From IMG/VR virus record IMGVR_UViG_3300043466_001759, positions 1 to 64,000 of that record: a DNA stretch of 64,000 nucleotides. The stretch is one strand, 5' to 3'. Source of the DNA: a virus. Below the pieces are notes generated by a model that ran no database searches, was not told the origin of the DNA, and worked only from the letters and a program-made list of their open reading frames with translations. Both the position numbers and the translations under genes were made by a program. Shown here piece after piece: positions 8,988 to 40,088 of the stretch; the stretch's first letter is position 1; every line of letters starts with the position of its first letter.

Positions 8988-9197
8988 ATGAGCGACAGAA
9001 ACACTACTGAAAAAAAGACATGCGAATGCGGCAGGGTATCAACCTATTTCGTGTCCCCTAACAATGGCAAAAAGCTGTTGCGAGGCTTTTGCGACTCATG
9101 CTACGAAGATAGATGCCGCAGAGAATCCAACAAACGGCTGGACAGGATCCAGAAGTTTAGAGATCGCAATCAATACGACAGGGAAGATCAATCCTAA
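8988..9197 (+). CDS. Small zinc-finger protein
   Basis: CECG...CDSC; start refined. Confidence 0.6.
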   Translation: MSDRNTTEKKTCECGRVSTYFVSPNNGKKLLRGFCDSCYEDRCRRESNKRLDRIQKFRDRNQYDREDQS

Positions 9198-9206
9198 AGA
9201 ACTAAT

Positions 9207-9379
9207 GGCTTGTCACGGCAATGCCAGTCTAGGCGGGATAAGTCCTGGCGTGACGTGGCAAGGCAAGGCAAGGCAAGGTTTCATGCATCGGCTGAAAAGT
9301 CGGTGCGTGGATTTACTGCGGCCCGGCGAGACGGAGCAAGTCGCGATCGGGCATGGCGTAGCATGACGAGGCAAGGTTT
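9207..9379 (+). ncRNA. Pentamer-periodic guide-like array block A (units 1-2)
   Basis: In-phase 5-mers ggctt gtcac ggcaa tgcca gtcta ggcgg gataa gtcct ggcgt gacgt ggcaa x4 ggttt; hairpin 9282-9309; second unit 9310-9379 ending ggcaa ggttt. Confidence 0.85.
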
Positions 9380-9446
9380 CAACTGCTATCAGCGAGGCAG
9401 TTTTTAAGTTCGCTGAAACATGGTTTTGTGCGTTAAGGATTTCAGT

Positions 9447-10004
9447 ATGAAGAAGGCAATTTGCAAATTACAGTCAGTCAGTCCGTATTCTCAATCGAGG
9501 TACATCCAAGAGAAAAGAACGCGAGACGAAACGCCAGCAGCGTTCGAAGAGCGATCCTGGAAGCAACGGTGCCATTGGAACGAAAATGGCAATCTTTACA
9601 TTCCTCCAATGTCGTTCAAAAACTGCTTGAGTGAAGCAGCAAAATACAAATCCATTCAGATCCCAGGAAAGGGAAAGTCGACATACACCAAACACTTCGA
9701 GGCTGGGATTCTTGTTGTCGAGCCTCTAGTTCTCGACATTACGAAAGACAGTATCCAACACGAATGGCTGCACGTCCCCTCTGACGGCAAGCGTGGAGGA
9801 ACAAAGCGTGTTGAAAAGTGTTTTCCGTTGATTCAGTCTTGGTCTGGCACTGTCGAGTTCTTGGTGTTGGATGAGACTATCACTGAGGATGTTTTCACAG
9901 CACACCTCCAAGACGCAGGGAGCTTTATTGGTATCGGTCGCTTCCGTCCGCGTAACAACGGCTTTTACGGTCGTTTTGAGGTAAAGTCGGTGAGTTGGAA
10001 ATAA
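9447..10004 (+). CDS. Stand-alone Cas7/RAMP-like RNA-binding protein (VIPR-like effector candidate)
   Basis: LYIPPMSFKNCLSEAA resembles the RAMP IPGSSxKG motif; C-terminal Gly-rich loop GIGRFRPRNNGFYGRFEV; TAAGGA RBS before ATG 9447; flanked by the periodic arrays. Confidence 0.8.
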   Translation: MKKAICKLQSVSPYSQSRYIQEKRTRDETPAAFEERSWKQRCHWNENGNLYIPPMSFKNCLSEAAKYKSIQIPGKGKSTYTKHFEAGILVVEPLVLDITKDSIQHEWLHVPSDGKRGGTKRVEKCFPLIQSWSGTVEFLVLDETITEDVFTAHLQDAGSFIGIGRFRPRNNGFYGRFEVKSVSWK

Positions 10005-10007
10005 TCC

Positions 10008-10447
10008 GGCAGGGTTAGGCTTTGCGCGTCGCGGCTCGTTGCGGCGTTGTGCGGCAAGGCAAGACAAGGTTTCATGCATCAGCTGAGAAGTCGGTGCATG
10101 GATTGACCTCGGCACGTCTCGTTGGTGCAGGGCAGGGCCCGGCGTGGCGCGGCTAGGCAAGGCAAGGCAAAGTTTCACATCTGAGGCGAATAGGCTCAGG
10201 TGTGAATTGACCGTGGCACGGCGAGGCATGTTATGACTCGGCGCGGCAAGGCAAGGCGAGGTTTCCTATCTGGGGCGAATAGGCCTAGGTAGGGATTGAT
10301 TAGGGTTTGGCTGGTCGGATCACGACAGGTCGGGGCTCGGCTAGGTAAAGCAAGGCAAGGTTTCACAGCTGGAGCGAACAGGTCCAGCTGTGGATTGGAC
10401 TCGGCATAGTAGGCCGAGGCGGGGCGTGGTAAAGCAAGGCAAGGACT
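10008..10447 (+). ncRNA. Pentamer-periodic guide-like array block B (units 3-7)
   Basis: Five phased 5-mer tracts (10008-10072, 10101-10175, 10205-10264, 10294-10363, 10393-10447) separated by hairpins at 10073-10100, 10176-10204, 10265-10293 and 10364-10392. Confidence 0.88.
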
Positions 10448-10470
10448 TTTTTACAAAGGGAACAAAGGGA

Positions 10471-10947
10471 ATGTTATTTGAAAAATCATCAGACACAAAG
10501 ATCTTAGAGGACACGCTTAGGCAGGTTGCAGTAGGTGACATGGCCACTTACGAAAACCTGTCAAAAGCAATTGGAAGGGACGTTCGAACGTTTGCGATCG
10601 CTGCACTACGTACAGCCCGACACGGACTCATTAAGGAAGGGTTCGTGTTCGGCGTCGAGCAGAATGTCGGACTCGTCAGGCTTAACTCTACAGAGATCGT
10701 CAAGAGCACAGAAATGGATCGAAAGTCGGTGCATCGAAAGGTTAATCGCACACTCAGCAAACTAAGCGTTGCGAAGTACGATGAGCTCGATGACGAGAAT
10801 AAAAGAAAACACGTCACGATGTCAGCGCAGATGGGTGCTCTGGCGATGTTTTCAGCGAAGACGGCAACCACGAAGATTGAATCTAAAGTCACTGGCGACT
10901 CGAAAGTATTGCCAGTCGGCGAAACACTGAAATTGTTTGGTGGGTAA
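10471..10947 (+). CDS. Array-embedded accessory protein, putative N-terminal winged HTH
   Basis: GDMATYENLSKAIGRDV...ALRTARHGLIKEGFVFGVEQNVGLVRL resembles a wHTH; the upstream ORF extension is array sequence. Confidence 0.7.
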   Translation: MLFEKSSDTKILEDTLRQVAVGDMATYENLSKAIGRDVRTFAIAALRTARHGLIKEGFVFGVEQNVGLVRLNSTEIVKSTEMDRKSVHRKVNRTLSKLSVAKYDELDDENKRKHVTMSAQMGALAMFSAKTATTKIESKVTGDSKVLPVGETLKLFGG

Positions 10948-10956
10948 ATACAACAC

Positions 10957-11170
10957 GGCGGGGTTGAGCCGGGCGAGTTAAAGCCAGGAGCGGTGCAGTA
11001 ACGCAAGACAAGGTTGCTTGTCGTGAGCGAATAGGTCACGACAAGTATTACGCATGGCACGTCTTCACTTGAAACGGCGGGGCGATGCGAGGTGGAGCGT
11101 GTCGGAGTAAGTCTCGACAGGTCGCCACAAGGCAAGGTTGCTTACCACGAGCGAACAGGTCGTGGTAAGC
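10957..11170 (+). ncRNA. Pentamer-periodic guide-like array block C (units 8-9)
   Basis: Tracts 10957-11016 and 11046-11140, each followed by a 10-11 bp hairpin with a GCGAAYAGG loop. Confidence 0.85.
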
Positions 11171-11199
11171 ATTTATAGATCTCAATCGGAAAGAACACG

Positions 11200-11829
11200 A
11201 TGGCTAACGTTACAACAACCGACAAGATTCCAGCGTTCTACACACTGGAGAAGATTTACGAGTCGATCGATAAAGTTAACGACAGCTGCGCCGATGGACA
11301 GCGAATTGATTTCTGGATTGCTGGGGGATCCGTTAGCGATCTGGCCAGAGGGAGGCGATTTAAGGACATCGACGTGTTCAGCCCTAAGCCTGTGGAGCTA
11401 GTTGAAAAGCTCTCTAGAGCCTACGGAAAACCGTATTCAGAGATCGTTGGAATGTTTGCTAACTTCCGATTGGGAAAGCATACGGTTCAAATCATAACTG
11501 GATACACACCAGCAAGCGAAGACGAAGTAATCGAGCTATTTGACTTCACAGCTGTTTGCGGGGCGTACTCACCCGATAGATTCGTATGCCACGAGAGATT
11601 CTGGCAAGACAACTGCACGAGGCGATTAGTGATCAATAATTTACCAAAGCCTCTATCGACACTAGATCGATTGGCTAAGTACTGTCGCAAAGGCTTCAAG
11701 CACTGCCCTGTCGGGTTGTCGCGAGTCATAAAAGCCATCGCAGCTGAAAACATCGACTGGGACAACCCTAGTCAAAACATAATCAACTTTTACCCAAATG
11801 GCCACATACGGTTTTTTGGGATCGATTAA
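11200..11829 (+). CDS. Nucleotidyltransferase (Pol-beta superfamily, CCA/poly(A) polymerase head-like)
   Basis: IAGGSVSD...KDIDVF catalytic motif, FDFT, RLAKYxxKGF. Confidence 0.8.
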   Translation: MANVTTTDKIPAFYTLEKIYESIDKVNDSCADGQRIDFWIAGGSVSDLARGRRFKDIDVFSPKPVELVEKLSRAYGKPYSEIVGMFANFRLGKHTVQIITGYTPASEDEVIELFDFTAVCGAYSPDRFVCHERFWQDNCTRRLVINNLPKPLSTLDRLAKYCRKGFKHCPVGLSRVIKAIAAENIDWDNPSQNIINFYPNGHIRFFGID

Positions 11830-11861
11830 TCAACGCTTTATTTTTATTGAAAGGGAAACCA

Positions 11862-12353
11862 ATGCTTGTATTAGGAAGAAAAGTCGGAGAGTCAATCACT
11901 ATCAACGGCGATACCGTGGTAACAGTAAAGAAGCACAGCAGCAAGATCTTTTTGGCGATCGAAGCTCCCGATGACGTATCGATCAAACGAACAGAATTAC
12001 TAACCATAAAAAGAGACGATGAAACAGATATCAAAGCTATCTTACGATTGGATTGTCGCTCTCAGGAATTCCCTAGCGAAGAATGGTTGCAGTCACTCGG
12101 ATTTGTTATCAACGAATCTGAGCATGCTCTTTTTGCTACAGCATTACTGGACGACTTCTCGGGCAATTGCCATCCTGCGCGTGTCGAGCTCAGGCTTATG
12201 CTTTTTGCCGATCAGACTGACGAGTGGGTCACTGACGTTGTGTCATACGATGCAAGTGGGACTGCGTCTTCAGTTGGTCTGGTAAACTCCTGGTGCAAGA
12301 CCAAGGCTGATGTCATTCGACTTGGCAAAGCCCTCGGTCTTAAAGCTTGGTGA
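11862..12353 (+). CDS. csrA: CsrA-like carbon storage regulator domain fused to an unknown C-terminal domain
   Basis: MLVLGRKVGESITINGD...LAIEAPDDVSIKRTEL matches the CsrA consensus. Confidence 0.8.
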   Translation: MLVLGRKVGESITINGDTVVTVKKHSSKIFLAIEAPDDVSIKRTELLTIKRDDETDIKAILRLDCRSQEFPSEEWLQSLGFVINESEHALFATALLDDFSGNCHPARVELRLMLFADQTDEWVTDVVSYDASGTASSVGLVNSWCKTKADVIRLGKALGLKAW

Positions 12354-12416
12354 GTAGAGGAGCCTGCGGAACCGTCTCTTGAGTATCCTAAAAACACACT
12401 GGAGCTACAAGACTGT

Positions 12417-21625: not shown

Positions 21626-21651
21626 ATCAACCTCCTGAAAACAAAAACCAG

Positions 21652-21726
21652 TGGACGGACAGGACTCGAACCTGCCTCTGCGACATCGCCCAACAGTCGC
21701 CGCTAAACCATCTCAGCTACTCGTCC
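21652..21726 (-). tRNA. Degenerate tRNA / tRNA-like element with an 11-nt anticodon loop
   Basis: GGACGAG TA GCTG-AGATGGTT-TAGC G GCGAC-TGTTGGGCGAT-GTCGC AGAG GCAGG-TTCGAGT-CCTGT CCGTCC A. Confidence 0.65.
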
Positions 21727-21733
21727 GCTTGTC

Positions 21734-37400: not shown

Positions 37401-40088
37401 GCCACGAATCTGAGCTGTCCTCTCCTTGTCCTCGACAAAACTGCCGTTCTGCATCTTTCCGACACGAACGACTGGAGCCCCTCCACGAGGATGCCAAGCA
37501 TTGTCCAATACGGACTTGTTGACTCCCCTTCCTCCACTCCAGTCTCTTACTCTCGCTGAGTAGTTCTTCCATATCTTGGAACCGAGGCCTTCACCGCCAG
37601 TTGCTCGCCCTGTACTGTCGACCAGCCCAGCACCTTCTGACGTTGTCCATGGATGAGACATGCCGCTAATCATCACGGTAGTGTCGCCATCCTCAAACCC
37701 CATGCCTCGCATCTCTTTTTCCAAGCTCGAGACGCCCTCAATGGTTCTCTTTTCACCAATCAAGTTACTCTTAGATCTTTCGTACTGGTCTTTATACCGA
37801 GCGTCACTCTTTCTTACTGGACCACCCTCAGAGCCTTTAAACAACTCTTGACGTTTCGACTCTATCTCATCTTCTGAGAGCTGATAGGAGTCTGCCGCAG
37901 GAACATCCTTTGCATCGGACGACTTCGCAGCCGACTCAGCCGGAACAGAGGCCTTCTGACTTGGGAACGCCGTTCTTGCCTGTTCCCATTGCTCTCGCCT
38001 TTGATTCTCGTCTGGTGCTTGCGATGCATTGGAGTCATCACCAAAGATGATCTCTGACCACTGCTCGGGACTAGGTGCACTTTCTAAGCCAGCAAATTTC
38101 CGACGTATCTTGTCATACTCTTGCTTGTCTGATGGGTTATCAAACACTGGCTCTTCCTGCTTAGCTACTGACGTTGCGTCAGCTGGCTTTGATCCTGTGC
38201 CTTCACTCGAAGATCGCTGTAGCTCCTCTCCTCCGTCCTTTACTTTCTGATACACATTCCTGGCTGCATCCATACTTGAATGCTCGCTGGAATAGATCTG
38301 CTTACCACTCCCAGTTTCAACAGAACGAACTACCCACTTCTTTCCGTCTTCAGACTCAAAGAGCTCGTGGCGAACACCATTGTCAAGTTCTGTGATTTCA
38401 TCAAGCTTCTTTGCTGGCTTTCCGGCGATCGACACCTTCTCGTCACCGCCGACTGCATCACTTAGCGGCTGGCTTACTGGCTGACCGGTAGGAACAGGCC
38501 CTACTTGGCTTTCGGCCTGGGCTGCTTCTTCTGCGACTGGCTGGACTTCTTGCCTGCCTTGGGCTTGGATTTCCCCGCCTTGAGGCTCGCTTTGGGGTCG
38601 TACGGCATTCTGTTCTCCTTGGTCGACTTCTGGTGGACCAGCAGGCAATGACTGATCAGACGAAGCCTGAGAGGCCCTGTCATTTATGAGTTTCTGTCCT
38701 GCCTCCCACTGCTCTCTCCGGACATTTGCATTGGGAACTGTCTTGTCATCACGAAGACCGGGATCACCCAGTACGATCTTAGCCCACTCGCTACGGCTTG
38801 GGGGCTCTTTAAGGCTTCCTATCTGAATCGATATGTCATCTATTTTTTGTTGGTCTTCAGGACTTACCTCATCAGCCGATTGTTTTGCAACAACCTCTGC
38901 GTCGTTTCCAGTATTGACGTCACCAGTCGGAGCAGGCGACTGGCCGACTGGCGCGATTGCGACCCCTTCAGCAGGCAGCTGATCAACCACTTGATCGTCA
39001 GGAACCTTCCTTCCTGTTCTTTTACCGACAGCGGCAGATAATCCACTTTGTGCACCACTGATTACGCCACCACCTAAAGCACCCGCAGCCGACGCTTCGA
39101 ACCATTTCATCCAGGTTTCTCGATCCGTAATCTTGTGATTCGGATCAACTATCTCTGCATTTATGCTCTGCAGCATCTCCTGGAAGCCCTCCTGGACGCC
39201 TTCCGAGCCAGAGCTCTTTACAGCGTCCCACAGATAAGCAGCTGCCGCTTTATTCCCAGATTGCTTTGCTATTTCGCCAGCGCCTATCTTGTTGATGAAT
39301 TTCATCAAAGACGGGGTCGCTCCAAATGCAACTTCGGATGCTCCAGATACTTGACCTAACAACAGTGCTGTAAAAGGACTGTCGATACCCTTCTCTCTTT
39401 GTTCGCCATACATGCCACCGCCTTCATGTAAAGCTGTGACCTGCTGGGAGGCGACTGCACCGCCAGCCTTTTTAGCTAAAGAATTGTAAACAAGCTTCTT
39501 GGCGGATTCCTCTGCAACTTCTTTTGTAGCTCCTCTGATTACATACTCTTTAGCTATGTCCGCGATCTTTTTCTTAATTGCTGTTTTTCCAAGAAAGCCA
39601 GTGATAGCACCGACAGGAACAGTAGCAACGTCAGCAGGATCAGGACCAGGAACCAACATAGAACCCGCTGCTGCACCAACGATCCCAGTACCAACAGATT
39701 CTGCTATAGATGGAGCTAACTCCCCTAGAGTACCAGCTGCCCATGTTGCCATGTTTCCAGGGCCTGCCATAGCACCTGTCTTTTCATCAGTAGAAAAGAA
39801 GTCTGTGACTGTCTTTGGGTTTTCAGACGCCTGCTCCATTTCCTTCTGATATTTTTTGAAACGTTCTCTAGCTGCAGATTCATTGCCCATTGCGGAGTGG
39901 TACGCGGCAATACCACCGTGATAGGTAGCCTGCGTCTGGTCGATGCCTCGCAGCAAACCTCGATACGCTTCGCTTCTGTTTTTTAAGTTGTCTTGAGTTC
40001 TTACCGCAGACTCTCTCTTGATCCTCATCAAAGAAAGTTGGTCAGCGAACTCTCCGTCGTCCATAACATCAACTTCAGGTGTTGCCAT
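25500..40088 (-). CDS. Giant polyvalent internal virion (ejection) protein, 4862 aa
   Basis: Hydrophobic Gly/Ala N-terminus; HEAFH zincin motif; TMDLWWSR; HDAFGH; GNAT-like block; two ART-like FKKWFGD...YHGT...GYDGV...KSATxNxGxFD domains. Confidence 0.9.
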   Translation of the reverse strand: MATPEVDVMDDGEFADQLSLMRIKRESAVRTQDNLKNRSEAYRGLLRGIDQTQATYHGGIAAYHSAMGNESAARERFKKYQKEMEQASENPKTVTDFFSTDEKTGAMAGPGNMATWAAGTLGELAPSIAESVGTGIVGAAAGSMLVPGPDPADVATVPVGAITGFLGKTAIKKKIADIAKEYVIRGATKEVAEESAKKLVYNSLAKKAGGAVASQQVTALHEGGGMYGEQREKGIDSPFTALLLGQVSGASEVAFGATPSLMKFINKIGAGEIAKQSGNKAAAAYLWDAVKSSGSEGVQEGFQEMLQSINAEIVDPNHKITDRETWMKWFEASAAGALGGGVISGAQSGLSAAVGKRTGRKVPDDQVVDQLPAEGVAIAPVGQSPAPTGDVNTGNDAEVVAKQSADEVSPEDQQKIDDISIQIGSLKEPPSRSEWAKIVLGDPGLRDDKTVPNANVRREQWEAGQKLINDRASQASSDQSLPAGPPEVDQGEQNAVRPQSEPQGGEIQAQGRQEVQPVAEEAAQAESQVGPVPTGQPVSQPLSDAVGGDEKVSIAGKPAKKLDEITELDNGVRHELFESEDGKKWVVRSVETGSGKQIYSSEHSSMDAARNVYQKVKDGGEELQRSSSEGTGSKPADATSVAKQEEPVFDNPSDKQEYDKIRRKFAGLESAPSPEQWSEIIFGDDSNASQAPDENQRREQWEQARTAFPSQKASVPAESAAKSSDAKDVPAADSYQLSEDEIESKRQELFKGSEGGPVRKSDARYKDQYERSKSNLIGEKRTIEGVSSLEKEMRGMGFEDGDTTVMISGMSHPWTTSEGAGLVDSTGRATGGEGLGSKIWKNYSARVRDWSGGRGVNKSVLDNAWHPRGGAPVVRVGKMQNGSFVEDKERTAQIRGVLEEALNFSQAKPSDKKSTDTTSAPKESKKSMGRENKLNAKSSESVPPPSKTGSTPPLLPKSATPPPLKQRTSSGDKSPAQVEAKSSDAVSVEPVRNQEDKDAPQTKRGGDPSEVQTEERREGQTNAQTKAEGQVSPEKPEGQATAGTPSSDSSSSKQKEAPKPPARPKRDSNEASKPKEESRKKAVAEKYLNELSPGQREAIAKSLTESLGTEVTVNDLVNNPGLVDAIVAISPARKSKTKPKKAASSRNRQAAKEDVPKQLGNVTLVSSEELSDDEKQQVKILDKMGVSMRFVNGRDLSLPGLFRPSTMTIWINRNYVTNMNRERGENSKWMTWGLFAHEAFHAMKVGNPEAWNQLYNWVSKHESSKEQDGLKKAGEDYIGDFDRELLSSVRADIKRSGKAVDVDKDVSGQDLLKAALKAGLKYDIFNKDGSLKEKGDLSQKTKDLSDFINEFNSNEDIRQEESLSRYLEDRAGDFDFWNELGNSKPGLLAKIGRWLRKALRFAEPDTLAGQVRLAIESAMESNGISPSSGGRASPARSSENQDSEASRVAEIRESARSATPDEHDALIAIANKHSKRDFVKSDITPSRIKNLKSNGLVVGSKLTPEGLDRLRSWDKKRKQAIAREAKLAGVDPDMAVYGLRVEKNKPWLLTEDIISNGIDTSLIPQDLEARSDSQKNNLKRTKWDVAQWLQSLYKKASGHSLSPNSKHSKSAKARMANQLAKEALHALKMDWAEGAIGWYNEKVTGALDHMADIFPEIVAPGKHQMMFKAALAISSDGQDVLPNFRMAVEIYERWKKTGTLSGWGHRSGVESSLDTMDKLVKKFGWERVEAFLATPLTAAQLSKHGFTVEDGIDPSISISKESFKVGGELVTARVYGSMIFGAKIGSFYNNLNYRFDTITMDLWWSRTIGRLRGKLESVNVENAQKSIDNGLRKNLSDKYLKKFGMSREDVARNDRAALRYARMLKSHNASVFTSTAISSYVSAIKKADELGSIENGSIQQFAPVDPSKLNANEKKFYGQLSEKIGNSKVAGKVSSESIAGMARDAIARRTEVNTTEFKAAKNVVVNAYGLYEIAKSGKDREVQREVAELAIKQVKEVIGKDITKADFQALMWYYEKELWGKLGLSKEIEKLDYEQAAKKVSQEHRASKRDGRRESISSGQRVSPEATGRAQSTVQSGEDAGSGRELDGGEYAGSGADGTRAGVGRQRPESAGDGRGRKDLRKNSPLAGSPSVPGINGPDPEVVAVAERYAKENGIDLKRQAEYVQVDPERAKRIADAYEQMAHAPQDPKVKAAYKELIRQTTAQYKALEDAGYKFWFMDLNVPSNAEYASSPYNALRDLRQNKQMGVFPTSDGFGTSDLDVNDNPLLEDTGIKWPSGGLDGQMKPVTANDLFRAVHDAFGHSLEGAGFRARGEENAWQAHVRLFTGDAVGAITSETRGQNSWLNYGPHGDKNRTAKVEDTTFADQKTGLMPEWTWTEGRAADYSETTDRESTDGTTEKDGSEDRSRKTRERAAVAKRSGREATATIRSRVGSNGRAWSRSEESRTLGGYGVVATYEADAAEWADVGVAAPSFVELQKSEKSASQFTAAINAARESQGKLGASVYVYPEQDYRDMRLFLTEDGKAGFALKDSGEAGVVDIVSVFNTANNAHRGVSYSMMRLAVEEGGNTLDAFDTFLPVLYSANGFRVISRAKWSDEFAPSGWSKEEYSDFNNGEPDVVFMAYDPQRTDIYRHNSGEGKAFDDIDEAVRSQRSAAIENATALDSRDLNSGLRYAIARPELAKELDKGETVTLYRAMTMIDGNLYPPMSSKINDGKKLSLRKPEPVGKWMVAEERPDLVPKTGKYAGKFPLKKPKGTTWAAYAPYFHASPIPLNDQFTASWYNDGVKRPKMVIVEVEVPASEMTSGYQAEGSSKKVGSNKWTAGVVASKLPGGREVVLSRYLRIKRIVPDAEVAKKIADIVNPSRLSIPENTVTPQLRAELEKNGVRISPKGTKGESIRYSPSRQVDSPAFKKWFGDWENDPENSSKIVWNGQPLSLYHGTKRDFNVFEGKAKTSTDGGYYGKGYYFTTDSEGAGRYAGRGDGSRILEVYVDIKNPAIINDTYRDNTADALSMSGGKLDYVDAKVAKVFNDVYDGDPTSHLDPEKSIEITKRLKEAGYDGVIVNQSDLPFAEVVAFDSSQIKSATGNRGTFDKFDPDIRYSPSRQDEMFAKLMKAMEERGLAKPGQSSLPETTGTKYARTEGQRKSVGDSPREWFGPRKVKDRQKKAIAELAANPGRPYEIISEMNAKPRPLTDMEDAILNARIRELKNEGDISGSDRKEWLDLNRTVQRGHSEWGYAGHAAQAELASDFSVEGLTRQHTSHVEADPSPEQIAKYAEMAERIDKLEAETAALAEKLAKEAIARKKAEAASVPKTDPPREKIGTKRATLMKKVADGFAAFQNAWGGGSSGRAAVSRSAITNVNGFGFGTDTLPDPSTVSRDEWLRAYMPLIMKAIPESKLSDEDIAVLGTVFGDENPFKADSKLMRMFSKWTVQSDLQERNWAEGVQALFRDRSRGTRMMLEQIASESGVEFDEDRFSDPSDYKALANSFVKYLPKYVSSNPDIGSEVTNLLDASKVILDPLEYAIKAWEDAQGGAGGSQIDTAAFKKWFGDSKVVDEDGNPLVVYHGTNEKFSVFESGRTSQRSVMLSSFDVETSGFFFSPSEDDARQYGKNVLPVYLSVQNRLMDPKVIGISSRSSEEVKAASAKAFEDAEYILEPMIYEEGGKRWIDTGGGVSNTEVDSDGDWINEIFIDGMIDWHALDNPKVVERMKERGYDGVKVYEENDGSGESWFVVESSQVKSATSNTGDFDKTNPDIRYSPSRQGTDIKSAADSIVNALREMGVSSVLELESQVKANMPNVTLEQMSVIKDAWAESNSKKKVESPIGDDPEPSAIGARAKELMTLAIEAGYGATNETWREVVDVVHAQLSIEVPGISEYDTMQAMSDYGSWRPLNKEEIAVKTRAIRGKTRQSLKIEDTIKAIAQSEEWLKNGVSPEEVARRLRDQNLLPKSTGREQPTPDSIERDLIAEFNKLKKELPVSTESREGQLKSALSTAKTAGKNRLEMLSKDIEALEEAIESRTVLARSVNDRTPLKPDAELASIRSQLEAKRKQRDDLKTEYEKIFPRSKKQRMLSAEQQTQRALKAIEKLKEKLQQVKDGKEVDSTKKPSLVAAEVQSQLKMWQDRLRAARQAAAEAEQGRYDDDGGAIPAQGGRKPMTEEQRLAMAERMLQSQIDDIKADTKSLTDGTWAPAVKGKVPTSSVLESLRAQLADLRKVRDEARKASPVYQAREEAKYWERYRKGQERRLAFWEKRRDEAKSGILPVPRNKRTITEEDILDKNLEIEKIKYEAMYEIEKAKRATWNAGQWMQYGLLEATSLIPKTLMLGMELSFFLRQGFFYSRSHPVRAFMAAVEAIPAVWSQRLALASVESLESRPNAKEYLQAEVEFTKKDGPRAQLEEMYQSAVIRWLENTKTPWLLPFRAWVGAYGAFERGNRTFANIMKADLYDIQKRDTLAAREFFGTNMEWTDSDIKEAGRITNIFSGRGTGLRGGSPWLDFFFLARRWTWSRIQADFILPLQLATPSWIGQWNADRGMRVSLAKLYIQTLMGHATKMAMGYFAYSLLAGDDEEKEPTIEWDPRSSDAWVMKVGETRFKDDGGLMPAVVLASRLLTGTIKTSSGEIKSIYGEDVQYGGKTGADFLINFARYKLGTGPASILEWVSGKDAVGRNIAKEGDPLAVPKHIIGSRLTPLTWKEIAAAEKELGVVSGTLASLEAFFGVSVSTYGPRTEYSGASDEEKKELFDKDLRGMKWDDKDLAYSDSLSGSQKKQARDAQQKKKQSLVYAASANPSRKNYKSDQAYKDAVTSRDEYMKTLKKSGISMTEARRLLIEHWEDNYGSAKETKKGVVVYKEGLSLRLRQLRKVFTN

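What the first reader, a model, noticed from the sequence alone, without database searches (positions are those of the whole stretch)
10294..10363. Unit 6 dinucleotides decode to the MBL-fold hydrolase signature RFWGTRGS
Seen: unit 6 dinucleotides are (TG) AG TT TG GG AC AG GG TC TA, then the tail. As codon positions 1-2 they give R/S-F/L-W/C-G-T-R/S-G-S-Y, which allows RFWGTRGSY. Known: FWG[TV]RGS is the conserved N-terminal motif of a widespread metallo-beta-lactamase-fold hydrolase family. Inference: this is an independent second hit for the wobble-skipping code, and the target would lie at the very 5' end of a gene, consistent with silencing of a host or competitor gene. Other units also give plausible stop-free peptides (unit 2 PDGKARIVIE-like, unit 3 RYLAASAVA-like, unit 5 VTEIISA-like), but I recognise no motif in them. 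The ambiguous positions were chosen by eye.
Basis: partly seen in the sequence, partly recalled or inferred. Interest (0 to 1): 0.82.

Follow-up and report, generated by a model that had tools for sequence, protein, structure and literature searches.

The report
Phage VIPR guide RNA, target unproven
The stretch is one of nine guide-RNA genes of a VIPR system, a CRISPR-related phage DNA silencer described in 2026 that reads two letters and skips one, but the proposed target, a metallo-beta-lactamase-fold gene, could not be confirmed.

Summary

It is one of nine such units on the + strand in three intergenic gaps. The units surround a 185-aa gene that matches the solved SUSP1 Vipr protein. Its model folds like Cas7 proteins.

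This is a VIPR locus. VIPR is known from three 2026 preprints.

The N-terminal RFWGTRGS motif of MBL-fold proteins is also real. The proposed target itself is not supported:
- The full pattern has 0 matches in IMG/VR.
- It matches 7 metagenome loci, none of them MBL.
- Shorter patterns hit unrelated genes in mixed frames.
- The best of 37 inspected MBL-motif sites matches 15 of 18 read bases.
- The family has I, V, T or A where the guide reads TA.
- The three AA repeats next to the tail fit poorly.

The host and the true target remain unknown. Verdict: a new member of a known kind, with an open target prediction.

The parts
9204..9312 (+). vrRNA unit 1: 15 YNNGG repeats (9204-9278, last four CAAGG), then TTTC and a hairpin tail with loop TGAAAA
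   Evidence: layout; tail hairpin covariation
9317..9400 (+). vrRNA unit 2: 12 repeats (9317-9376), then TTTC and a shorter, different hairpin (AACTGC..GCAGTT); lies just upstream of vipr
9447..10004 (+). vipr gene: 185-aa RAMP (Cas7-like) protein with a C-terminal glycine-rich loop GIGRFRPRNNGFYGRF
   Evidence: phmmer hit to PDB 36pp_D 'SUSP1 Vipr protein', E 1e-5. BLASTP to the Felixounavirus homologue tootiki_14: 25% identity, E 1e-12. AF2 model pLDDT 87.7. Foldseek top hits are Cas7/Csm3/Cmr4, E 5e-7. 11 homologues aligned. phrog_4652.
10005..10107 (+). vrRNA unit 3: 13 repeats (10005-10069) and a hairpin tail (loop TGAGAA)
10108..10211 (+). vrRNA unit 4: 13 repeats (10108-10172) and a hairpin tail (loop GCGAATAGG)
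10212..10300 (+). vrRNA unit 5: 10 repeats (10212-10261) and a hairpin tail ending GGGATTGAT
10301..10360 (+). vrRNA unit 6 guide region (the finding): 12 repeats, NN = AG TT TG GG AC AG GG TC TA AA AA AA; five repeats have an imperfect GG
10361..10399 (+). vrRNA unit 6 tail: TTTC, a 10-bp hairpin at 10364-10392 (loop GCGAACAGG), then GATTGG
   Evidence: across 8 tails, 91.3% of 80 cells are paired, 22 cells are changed on both sides, 0 of 500 shuffles reach this, and slid controls give 25-39%
10400..10444 (+). unit 7: short, degenerate array (last six repeats NN = GA GG GT AA AA AA) with no hairpin tail. It runs into the leader of the next gene, where ACAAAGGGA occurs twice before the ATG.
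10471..10947 (+). candidate vap (vipr-accessory) gene, 158 aa, conserved next to vipr in related viral contigs
   Evidence: tblastn homologues beside vipr in L191, L002, L003, L014 (27-38% identity; 5 loci in all; L012 also matches, 27%, in the per-locus list). No Pfam family. No similarity to the Felixounavirus vap1-position gene (E 0.17).
10954..11052 (+). vrRNA unit 8: 12 repeats (10954-11013), then TTGC and a hairpin tail
11053..11175 (+). vrRNA unit 9: 17 repeats (11053-11137, the 5' ones degenerate), then TTGC and a hairpin tail
   Evidence: (I4)

Best explanation
Window 10301-10399 is a gene for a VIPR guide RNA (vrRNA). It is one of nine in a VIPR locus of a complete 72.9-kb phage genome with direct terminal repeats, found in lake water.

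By analogy with the SUSP1 and P. fulva systems, the mechanism would run as follows (inferred, not shown here). The RNA is transcribed with the + strand operon. One Vipr protomer (gene 9447-10004) binds each YNNGG repeat, burying GGY and exposing NN. The hairpin caps the 3' end. The filament then pairs its NN dinucleotides with double-stranded DNA that reads NNxNNx, and blocks transcription there.

Shown here: the repeat anatomy, the covarying tail hairpin, homology of the protein to Vipr, its RAMP fold, and the absence of self-targets.

The natural target of unit 6 is unknown. I judge its compatibility with the MBL motif RFWGTRGS to be more likely a coincidence found after the fact than a real target. 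Unit 6 may also be a decaying guide.
For: Repeat anatomy: period-5 scores are 21-27 of 30 against a genome mean of 7.1, and the layout is YNNGG. Across 7,581 repeats of 539 arrays, C is at position 1 in 89%, G at positions 4 and 5 in 95% and 94%, and all 16 dinucleotides occur at positions 2-3. Those arrays were selected for the C..GG pattern, so these figures are inflated.

Protein: PDB 36pp_D 'SUSP1 Vipr protein', E 1e-5; Cas7-family fold; 45 ORFs immediately downstream of arrays in 38 loci form one cluster that I take to be the Vipr family from their sequences (not checked against a Vipr profile).

Felixounavirus homologue: it sits between GGYNN arrays.

Tail hairpin: covariation.

Published mechanism.

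No self-target: 0 matches with up to 3 mismatches in the window; best own-genome score 13 of 18.

Against the MBL target:
- 0 of 7 metagenome loci and 0 of 11 viral loci from the two 8-dinucleotide scans lie in an MBL gene.
- 0 of 46 viral FWGT[RS]GS sites open an MBL gene.
- The best of the 37 inspected MBL-motif sites scores 15 of 18, or 16 of 24 with the AA repeats.
Against: No vrRNA expression data exist for this phage. No natural target was found for any guide tried: units 3, 4 and 6 in IMG/VR, and eight guides (unit 7 too short to score) in local data. Function as a guide is therefore inferred from homology.

The tail is a plain hairpin, not the SUSP1 pseudoknot. The candidate vap has no detectable similarity to the vap1-position gene.

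Against calling the MBL match chance:
- The motif is real and N-terminal.
- Eight consecutive repeats (16 bases) fit it.
- None of 8,696 seven-repeat windows in 539 other arrays fits even 6 of 7 motif residues.
- Published guides do favour conserved, codon-aligned motifs.
- The searches could not see a bacterial gene with one or two mismatches outside 301 Planctomycetota genomes.
Confidence: 0.8

Rival explanations
1. Unit 6 really is aimed at the first codons (RFWGTRGS) of an MBL-fold hydrolase gene of the host or of a rival element. Vipr binding there silences the gene.
For: All eight dinucleotides AG TT TG GG AC AG GG TC fit the conserved N-terminus M..[RK]FWG[TV]RGS of Lactamase_B_2 proteins. 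For this one motif the fit is rare: 0 of 8,696 windows in other arrays reach 6 of 7 residues. Published VIPR guides are mostly wobble-aligned and sit on conserved codons, a natural footprint can be 18 bp, and promoter-proximal sites silence well. Real genes reach 15 of 18 read bases (L292, L371), above the papers' 80% cut-off if only the nine variable repeats count.
Against: No sequence in IMG/VR or the JGI metagenome collection joins the pattern to an MBL gene.

At the ninth codon the family has I, V, T or A, never Y. It then continues P-x-P/S. So the four repeats nearest the tail (TA AA AA AA) would pair at about 1-2 of 8 bases. In SUSP1 those are the repeats that engage DNA first.

15 of 18 is expected several times per genome by chance, and those sites were selected for the motif.

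The phage has no MBL gene of its own. No viral contig in the scan carries this N-terminus. Published natural targets are mobile elements, not cellular enzymes. The motif was chosen by eye among 48 possible decodings, nine units and all known motifs.
Confidence: 0.12
2. Unit 6 is a decaying guide that is no longer loaded or used. Its NN string then has no current target.
For: Five of its 12 repeats have lost one or both conserved G's (GTC, ATC, GAC, GTC, AGC in GGY register). Its period-5 score (23) is among the lower of the eight peaks; unit 4 scores 27. In SUSP1, perturbing GGY abolishes silencing. Unit 7 next to it has lost its tail.
Against: The paper notes frequent internal degeneracy in working vrRNAs. 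The pyrimidine at position 3 is kept in all 12 repeats. The tail hairpin is perfect (10 of 10 pairs). The unit is identical in contigs of four other lake-water runs.
Confidence: 0.15
3. The arrays are not guides but multi-site binding platforms for another RNA-binding protein. One candidate is the CsrA-domain protein encoded 700 bases downstream, with the arrays acting as a CsrB-like sponge. Another is a TRAP-like ring that reads a triplet every five bases.
For: A CsrA-domain gene lies in the same operon (Pfam E 9e-12). The default repeat CAAGG resembles the CARGG core of the CsrA consensus, which I recall and did not test. TRAP sites also have a triplet plus a 2-nt spacer (recalled).
Against: CsrA was found in 0 of 5 other array-bearing viral records, one of them complete. 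A Vipr homologue directly follows arrays in 38 loci. The Vipr-vrRNA structure explains both the conserved GGY and the free NN.
Confidence: 0.03

Closest known systems
VIPR systems (Vipr + vrRNA + vap); reference type II systems of Escherichia phage SUSP1 and a Pseudomonas fulva prophage (bioRxiv 10.64898/2026.04.26.720920, .720927, 2026.10.15.759431; PDB 36pp)
   Same: Both have a small RAMP protein gene flanked by intergenic arrays of 9-16 YNNGG repeats with conserved GGY and free NN, each array followed by a conserved structured 3' tail. Both are phage-borne, have several guides per locus, carry a small accessory gene after vipr, and show no self-targets.
   Different: - The Vipr protein is only 25% identical to the Felixounavirus/SUSP1-clade protein.
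- The repeat is GGC-based (CNNGG) rather than mostly GGT.
- The tail is a 10-11-bp hairpin with a GCGAAYAGG or TGARAA loop, not the SUSP1 pseudoknot, and this tail type occurs in none of the 378 other loci fetched.
- Every guide ends in two to four constant CAAGG repeats.
- The accessory gene is unrelated in sequence.
- The VIPR type (I-VII) could not be assigned, because the figures and supplements that define the types were not available.
- No natural target was found.
Class 1 CRISPR effector backbones (Cas7/Csm3/Cmr4 on crRNA)
   Same: The fold is the same: Foldseek top hits are type VII Cas7, Csm3 and Cmr4 (E 5e-7 to 1e-4, TM about 0.5). Both place one protomer per fixed RNA step, with flipped bases breaking the guide-target duplex.
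   Different: There is no CRISPR array, no cas genes and no spacer acquisition. The RNA step is 5 nt with only 2 nt read, against 6 nt with 5 read. The target is double-stranded DNA read with a gap. The system is encoded by a phage.
N-terminal FWG[TV]RGS family of MBL-fold (Lactamase_B_2) proteins, the proposed target
   Same: The first eight variable dinucleotides of unit 6 fit codon positions 1-2 of RFWGTRGS. The motif does sit at residues 4-11 of ~270-300-aa MBL-fold proteins.
   Different: No gene with this codon pattern was found. The family continues I/V-P-x-P where the guide reads TA AA AA AA. The best real genes match 15 of 18 bases.

Membership tests
VIPR system | A Vipr protein (minimal RAMP with RRM core, glycine-rich loop and thumb) encoded beside the arrays | tested here: met
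   PDB 36pp_D SUSP1 Vipr, E 1e-5. 25% identity and E 1e-12 to the Felixounavirus homologue. AF2 pLDDT 87.7. Cas7/Csm3/Cmr4 are the top folds. Conserved G-loop GxGRFRPxxxGFYGRF.
VIPR system | vrRNA guide region: tandem YNNGG repeats (9-16 typical, at least 4) with conserved GGY and hypervariable NN | tested here: met
   Nine units; eight have 10-17 repeats and unit 7 is short and degenerate. Period-5 score is 21-27 of 30 against a mean of 7.1. NN differs between all units.
VIPR system | Conserved structured 3' tail after the repeats | tested here: met
   A hairpin is supported by covariation in 8 tails: 91.3% paired, 9 of 10 pairs changed on both sides, 0 of 500 shuffles. It is a hairpin, not the SUSP1-clade pseudoknot. 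Unit 7 has none.
VIPR system | vap accessory gene next to vipr | tested here: inconclusive
   A 158-aa gene follows vipr here and beside vipr in related contigs (5 loci's per-gene count). It has no family match and no similarity to the vap1-position gene of a Felixounavirus.
VIPR system | vrRNAs are expressed as ~100-nt RNAs and bind Vipr | not testable with these tools
   No RNA run holds the stretch. Only DNA contigs were laid.
VIPR system | Guides match natural targets by the 1-nt skip rule (at least 80% of NN bases), typically in rival mobile elements | tested here: inconclusive
   Exact patterns of units 3, 4 and 6 give 0 hits in IMG/VR. Unit 6 gives 7 metagenome loci at chance level. Local and cross-phage scans do not exceed shuffled controls. 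The collections cannot be searched with mismatches.
VIPR system | No self-targeting | tested here: met
   0 matches with up to 3 mismatches in the window. Across the whole genome the best unit 6 score is 13 of 18, and only unit 5 reaches 80% (16 of 20; a 7-dinucleotide core scores 12 of 14), at control level.
Target = FWG[TV]RGS MBL-fold hydrolase gene | The motif exists at the N-terminus of an MBL-fold family | tested here: met
   81 of 301 Planctomycetota genomes hold the FWG[RYN codon]RGS pattern. Most of the 30 loci inspected show it at the N-terminus of ~270-300-aa ORFs. Lactamase_B_2 E 3e-21 and 1.5e-15.
Target = FWG[TV]RGS MBL-fold hydrolase gene | A real gene carries the guide's codon pattern in frame (at least 80% of all read bases) | tested here: inconclusive
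   The best of 37 sites inspected scores 15 of 18 over the nine variable repeats, but 16 of 24 (67%) over all twelve. There are no MBL hits among exact or 8-dinucleotide matches.
Target = FWG[TV]RGS MBL-fold hydrolase gene | The guide's ninth repeat (TA = Y) and its 3' AA repeats fit the family | tested here: not met
   The residue after S is I, V, T or A, followed by P/A-x-P/S, in the N-terminal MBL sites inspected.

The most novel reading that the evidence does not exclude
A phage VIPR guide is aimed at a cellular gene rather than at a rival mobile element. Unit 6 would park a Vipr filament on the first eight codons of a host MBL-fold (RNase Z- or phosphodiesterase-like) hydrolase gene. Only the eight distal repeats would pair, and the constant CAAGG repeats next to the tail would serve as a non-reading loading platform. 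That would extend VIPR from inter-phage warfare to host reprogramming. It would also show that this clade uses its 3' repeats differently from SUSP1.
Probability: 0.1. Interest if true: 0.6.

Novelty: new member of a known kind. Interest (0 to 1): 0.3.

Why it matters
The element is a working-looking example of a system described only in 2026, in an uncultured lake-water phage far from the studied E. coli and Pseudomonas cases. Its Vipr protein is 25% identical to theirs.

Three features could help define what is essential in VIPR RNAs: nine guides, hairpin tails instead of pseudoknots, and the constant CAAGG repeats.

The specific claim would matter if it were true, because no cellular gene has been reported as a natural VIPR target. 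As it stands it is a prediction without a matching sequence.

The case is also a warning. Decoding guide dinucleotides into peptides by eye gives attractive but untestable matches unless the host or rival genomes are known.

Tried and rejected
1. CsrA-sponge and TRAP-like readings. A CsrA-domain gene lies nearby, but CsrA was found in 0 of 5 other array-bearing viral records, and the Vipr match explains the anatomy.

2. DGR-style A-to-N mutagenesis of a (GGCAA)n template. Dropped because non-A positions also vary and VIPR explains the pattern. A reverse transcriptase was not searched for.

3. Sigma-54 promoter, G-quadruplex, R-loop and centromere ideas. Considered from the sequence only and dropped.

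4. Rfam. 0 families at gathering score in the window.

5. The phages collection by DNA. No match to 9000-12400.

6. Literature search for the string GGCAAGGCAAGG. 9 papers, none relevant.

7. Host identification.
- The Vipr protein matched 1 of 151 Planctomycetota genomes, the one picked for its array, at 31% identity.
- The tail motif is in 0 of 378 loci.
- The host stays unknown.

8. Natural targets.
- Units 3 and 4: full patterns give 0 hits in IMG/VR.
- All arrays against all local loci: 351 real hits against 297 shuffled.
- 265 complex guides at 90% or more: 0 real against 1.0 in the control.
- Cross-targeting among 8 related phage records: 0 against 0.1.

9. The antisense decoding Y[DE]PLVP[HQ][KN]L. 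Several hits lie in frame in long ORFs (L265/L269, L305, L376, L378), but those proteins share nothing beyond the selected motif.

10. An MBL gene of the phage's own, as a diverged self copy. None at E <= 1.

11. RNA evidence. No RNA holder was listed.

12. Population variation at NN positions. Contigs of four lake-water runs are identical where they cover the stretch and break at the arrays. Contigs drop rare variants, so this says nothing about variability.

13. PADLOC. No hit for Vipr, the vap candidate, the NTase-like gene, the CsrA-like gene or two MBL proteins.

Full report
**The observation**

Counting back in fives from the conserved junction GG|TTTC gives 12 repeats at 10301-10360: TAGGG TTTGG CTGGT CGGAT CACGA CAGGT CGGGG CTCGG CTAGG TAAAG CAAGG CAAGG. 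The variable dinucleotides are AG TT TG GG AC AG GG TC TA AA AA AA.

The bracketed 'TG' of the finding belongs to the conserved GATTGA end of the preceding unit, not to a repeat.

The five-base periodicity is not chance. A ten-pentamer score for C..GG reaches 21-27 of 30 at eight places. All lie on the + strand between 9203 and 11101. The genome mean is 7.1 (sd 2.4) and the - strand maximum is 20.

There are nine units in three intergenic gaps (about 9204-9400, 10005-10444 and 10954-11175). Eight of them end in TTTC or TTGC plus a hairpin.

The hairpin is supported by covariation across the eight tails:
- 91.3% of 80 cells are paired.
- 9 of 10 pairs are changed on both sides.
- 0 of 500 shuffles reach the observed values.
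- Controls with the partner slid by 1-3 columns give 25-39% paired.

**What it is**

My first ideas were a CsrA sponge, a TRAP-like ring site, or DGR-like A-to-N mutagenesis. A CsrA-domain gene does lie at 11847-12353 (Pfam E 9e-12).

The arrays turned out to be widespread. In the 264 sequences then held (263 fetched loci and the phage genome) I found 539 arrays in 233 of them. Over 7,581 repeats, C is at position 1 in 89%, G at positions 4 and 5 in 95% and 94%, and all 16 dinucleotides occur at positions 2-3. The arrays were selected for this pattern, so those percentages are inflated.

CsrA was found in 0 of 5 other array-bearing viral records. In contrast, the ORF that directly follows an array belongs to one cluster in 38 loci. 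Our gene 9447-10004 has tblastn matches in 20 of the fetched loci, up to 62% identical.

That gene matches one solved structure by sequence: 36pp_D, 'SUSP1 Vipr protein' (E 1e-5). A literature search for that name led to three 2026 preprints on VIPR, Viral Interference Programmable Repeat systems.

**What I read of the papers**

- bioRxiv 10.64898/2026.04.26.720920 (also listed as PMC13142463): outline, all of Results, and Methods sections 20, 26 and 27.
- bioRxiv 10.64898/2026.04.26.720927: outline and all of Results.
- bioRxiv 10.64898/2026.10.15.759431: the listing and 12 passages found by term.
- Supplements were closed.

The papers report the following:
- Phage-encoded Vipr, a minimal RAMP protein, binds vrRNAs made of 9-16 YNNGG repeats followed by a conserved structured tail.
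- One protomer sits on each repeat and buries GGY.
- The exposed NN pairs with double-stranded DNA in which every third base is skipped (the '1 nt skip rule').
- In natural targets the skipped base falls mostly on the codon wobble position.
- Targets lie on either strand.
- Binding silences transcription.
- Natural targets are satellites, prophages and other VIPR loci.
- Guides do not hit their own contig.

**Membership, tested here**

- *Protein.* The Vipr candidate aligns with 11 homologues and shares the C-terminal glycine-rich loop. Its AlphaFold model is confident (mean pLDDT 87.7, pTM 0.81). Its best structural matches are Cas7-family proteins: type VII Cas7, Csm3, Cmr4 and Cas7-11 (E 5e-7 and up, TM about 0.5).
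- *Known relative.* It is 25% identical (E 1e-12) to the homologue in Escherichia phage tootiki. That gene is itself flanked by GGYNN arrays.
- *Accessory gene.* A 158-aa gene follows vipr here and in related contigs. It has no family match and no similarity to the gene in the vap1 position of tootiki, so I call the vap feature inconclusive.
- *Self-targets.* None. There are 0 matches with up to 3 mismatches in the window. The best unit 6 score in the whole genome is 13 of 18.
- *Expression.* It could not be tested, because no RNA run holds the stretch.
- *The genome.* The record is a complete phage genome with direct terminal repeats. The stretch 9000-11300 recurs, without differences where contigs cover it, in contigs of four other lake-water metagenome runs.

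**Differences from the studied systems**

- The repeats are GGC-based.
- The tails are plain hairpins, with loop GCGAAYAGG in five units and TGARAA in two. This tail type was found in none of 378 other loci.
- Every guide ends in two to four constant CAAGG repeats.
- Unit 7 has no tail.

**The MBL claim: what holds**

The 'known' half is correct. A degenerate codon pattern for FWG-x-RGS occurs in 81 of 301 Planctomycetota genomes. In most of the 30 loci inspected, it sits at the N-terminus of ~270-300-aa ORFs that read M..[RK]FWG[TV]RGS[IV]P.PG. Two of these score as Lactamase_B_2 (E 3e-21 and 1.5e-15).

The fit is also rare for this motif. Of 8,696 seven-repeat windows in 539 other arrays, in both orientations, none fits even 6 of 7 residues.

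**The MBL claim: searches that found nothing**

- *Full nine-dinucleotide pattern in IMG/VR.* 0 matches.
- *Full pattern in the metagenome collection.* 7 loci, 6 distinct sequences. One sequence (L265 = L269) is in frame on the other strand, in a 987-aa unknown protein set among ordinary chromosomal genes.
- *Pattern without the last dinucleotide, IMG/VR.* 7 loci, 4 distinct sequences.
- *Pattern without the first dinucleotide, IMG/VR.* 4 loci.
- *Frames.* The long ORFs at these sites are spread over several frames. None is MBL. The in-frame antisense ORFs share nothing but the selected motif.
- *FWGT[RS]GS with a TCN serine codon, IMG/VR.* 46 loci, and none opens an MBL gene.
- *Real MBL genes.* Of 37 MBL-motif sites inspected, the best match 15 of 18 read bases (L292, L371). 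That is 16 of 24 if the three AA repeats count.

**Reasons to doubt the target**

- The family has I, V, T or A after the serine, never Y, and then P/A-x-P/S. The four repeats nearest the tail (TA AA AA AA) would therefore pair at only one or two of eight bases.
- In SUSP1 the repeats next to the tail are the ones resolved on DNA first, and the R-loop grows from there toward the 5' end.
- Five of unit 6's twelve repeats have lost a conserved G, and perturbing GGY abolishes silencing in SUSP1.
- 'Stop-free' peptides are no evidence, since any dinucleotide can start a sense codon.
- The motif was picked by eye among 48 decodings, nine units, two strands and every motif a reader knows.

**Reasons not to close the case**

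- Sixteen bases fit a real, N-terminal, strongly conserved motif.
- Published guides do prefer conserved, codon-aligned positions, and one natural footprint is only 18 bp.
- My searches of the large collections needed exact matches.
- The host is unknown: Vipr was found in 1 of 151 Planctomycetota genomes, and only weakly.
- A host gene with one mismatched repeat would have escaped every scan except the 301-genome sample.

**Other guides**

- The full patterns of units 3 and 4 have 0 matches in IMG/VR.
- Scans of the guides of this phage (unit 7 too short to score) and of related phages against all local sequence, against each other's genomes and against their own genome stay at the level of shuffled controls.

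**Verdict**

The feature is real and its logic is striking, but it has been explained since 2026. Earlier agents of this scan reached the same identification in other genomes (read after my own identification).

This locus is a new, divergent member of a known kind. The MBL target is an open prediction. It is unsupported by any sequence found, and it is weakened by the mismatch at the tail-proximal repeats.

Noticed in passing
window 11847-12353 (+): A 168-aa protein with an N-terminal CsrA domain (Pfam E 9e-12, residues 6-53) and a ~110-aa C-terminal extension of unknown kind. It is the last gene of the operon that holds the VIPR locus. CsrA was not found in 5 other array-bearing viral records.
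   Followed up: partly
window 11200-11829 (+): A 209-aa protein with weak PHROG matches to a nucleotidyltransferase and a GGSVSDLARGRRFKDIDVF stretch. From memory, that stretch resembles the G[GS]..DxD head of pol-beta/CCA-adding enzymes. It lies directly after vrRNA unit 9.
   Followed up: no
window 10453-10471: ACAAAGGGA occurs twice in tandem, ending at the ATG of the vap-like gene (TRF score 38). The GGA motifs overlap the ribosome-binding site, which could be a CsrA-type control site.
   Followed up: no
window 25500-40088 (-): A single 4,862-aa open reading frame in the structural half of the phage genome.
   Followed up: no
window 21650-21728 (-): The phage carries a tRNA-Pro (anticodon GGG).
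   Followed up: no
L012 / G004 (IMG/VR record with direct terminal repeats), locus coordinates 3-2117: A related phage has at least seven arrays in tandem, of up to 41 repeats, separated by a ~45-nt conserved spacer without an obvious hairpin. One array lies inside the terminal repeat, so it is present at both genome ends.
   Followed up: partly
L229:410-944 and L122:3688-4382: Very long arrays. One has 107 CNNGG repeats with free NN in one contig. The other has 139 near-identical CAAGG/CAAGT repeats (microsatellite-like) in a bacterial contig. Both are far beyond the 9-16 repeats described for vrRNAs.
   Followed up: no
window 10127-10170 and 9256-9278, as seen in runs X4, X5 and X8: Contigs from the same lake-water runs match only the constant part of the arrays and then continue with different NN strings and different flanks. 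Other VIPR-bearing elements therefore seem to co-occur with this phage.
   Followed up: no
L376:8586-9599 (-), site at residues 64-72: A 338-aa ORF of a viral contig matches unit 6 at 17 of 18 read bases, in frame on the antisense strand. By my estimate this is within chance for a collection of this size.
   Followed up: partly
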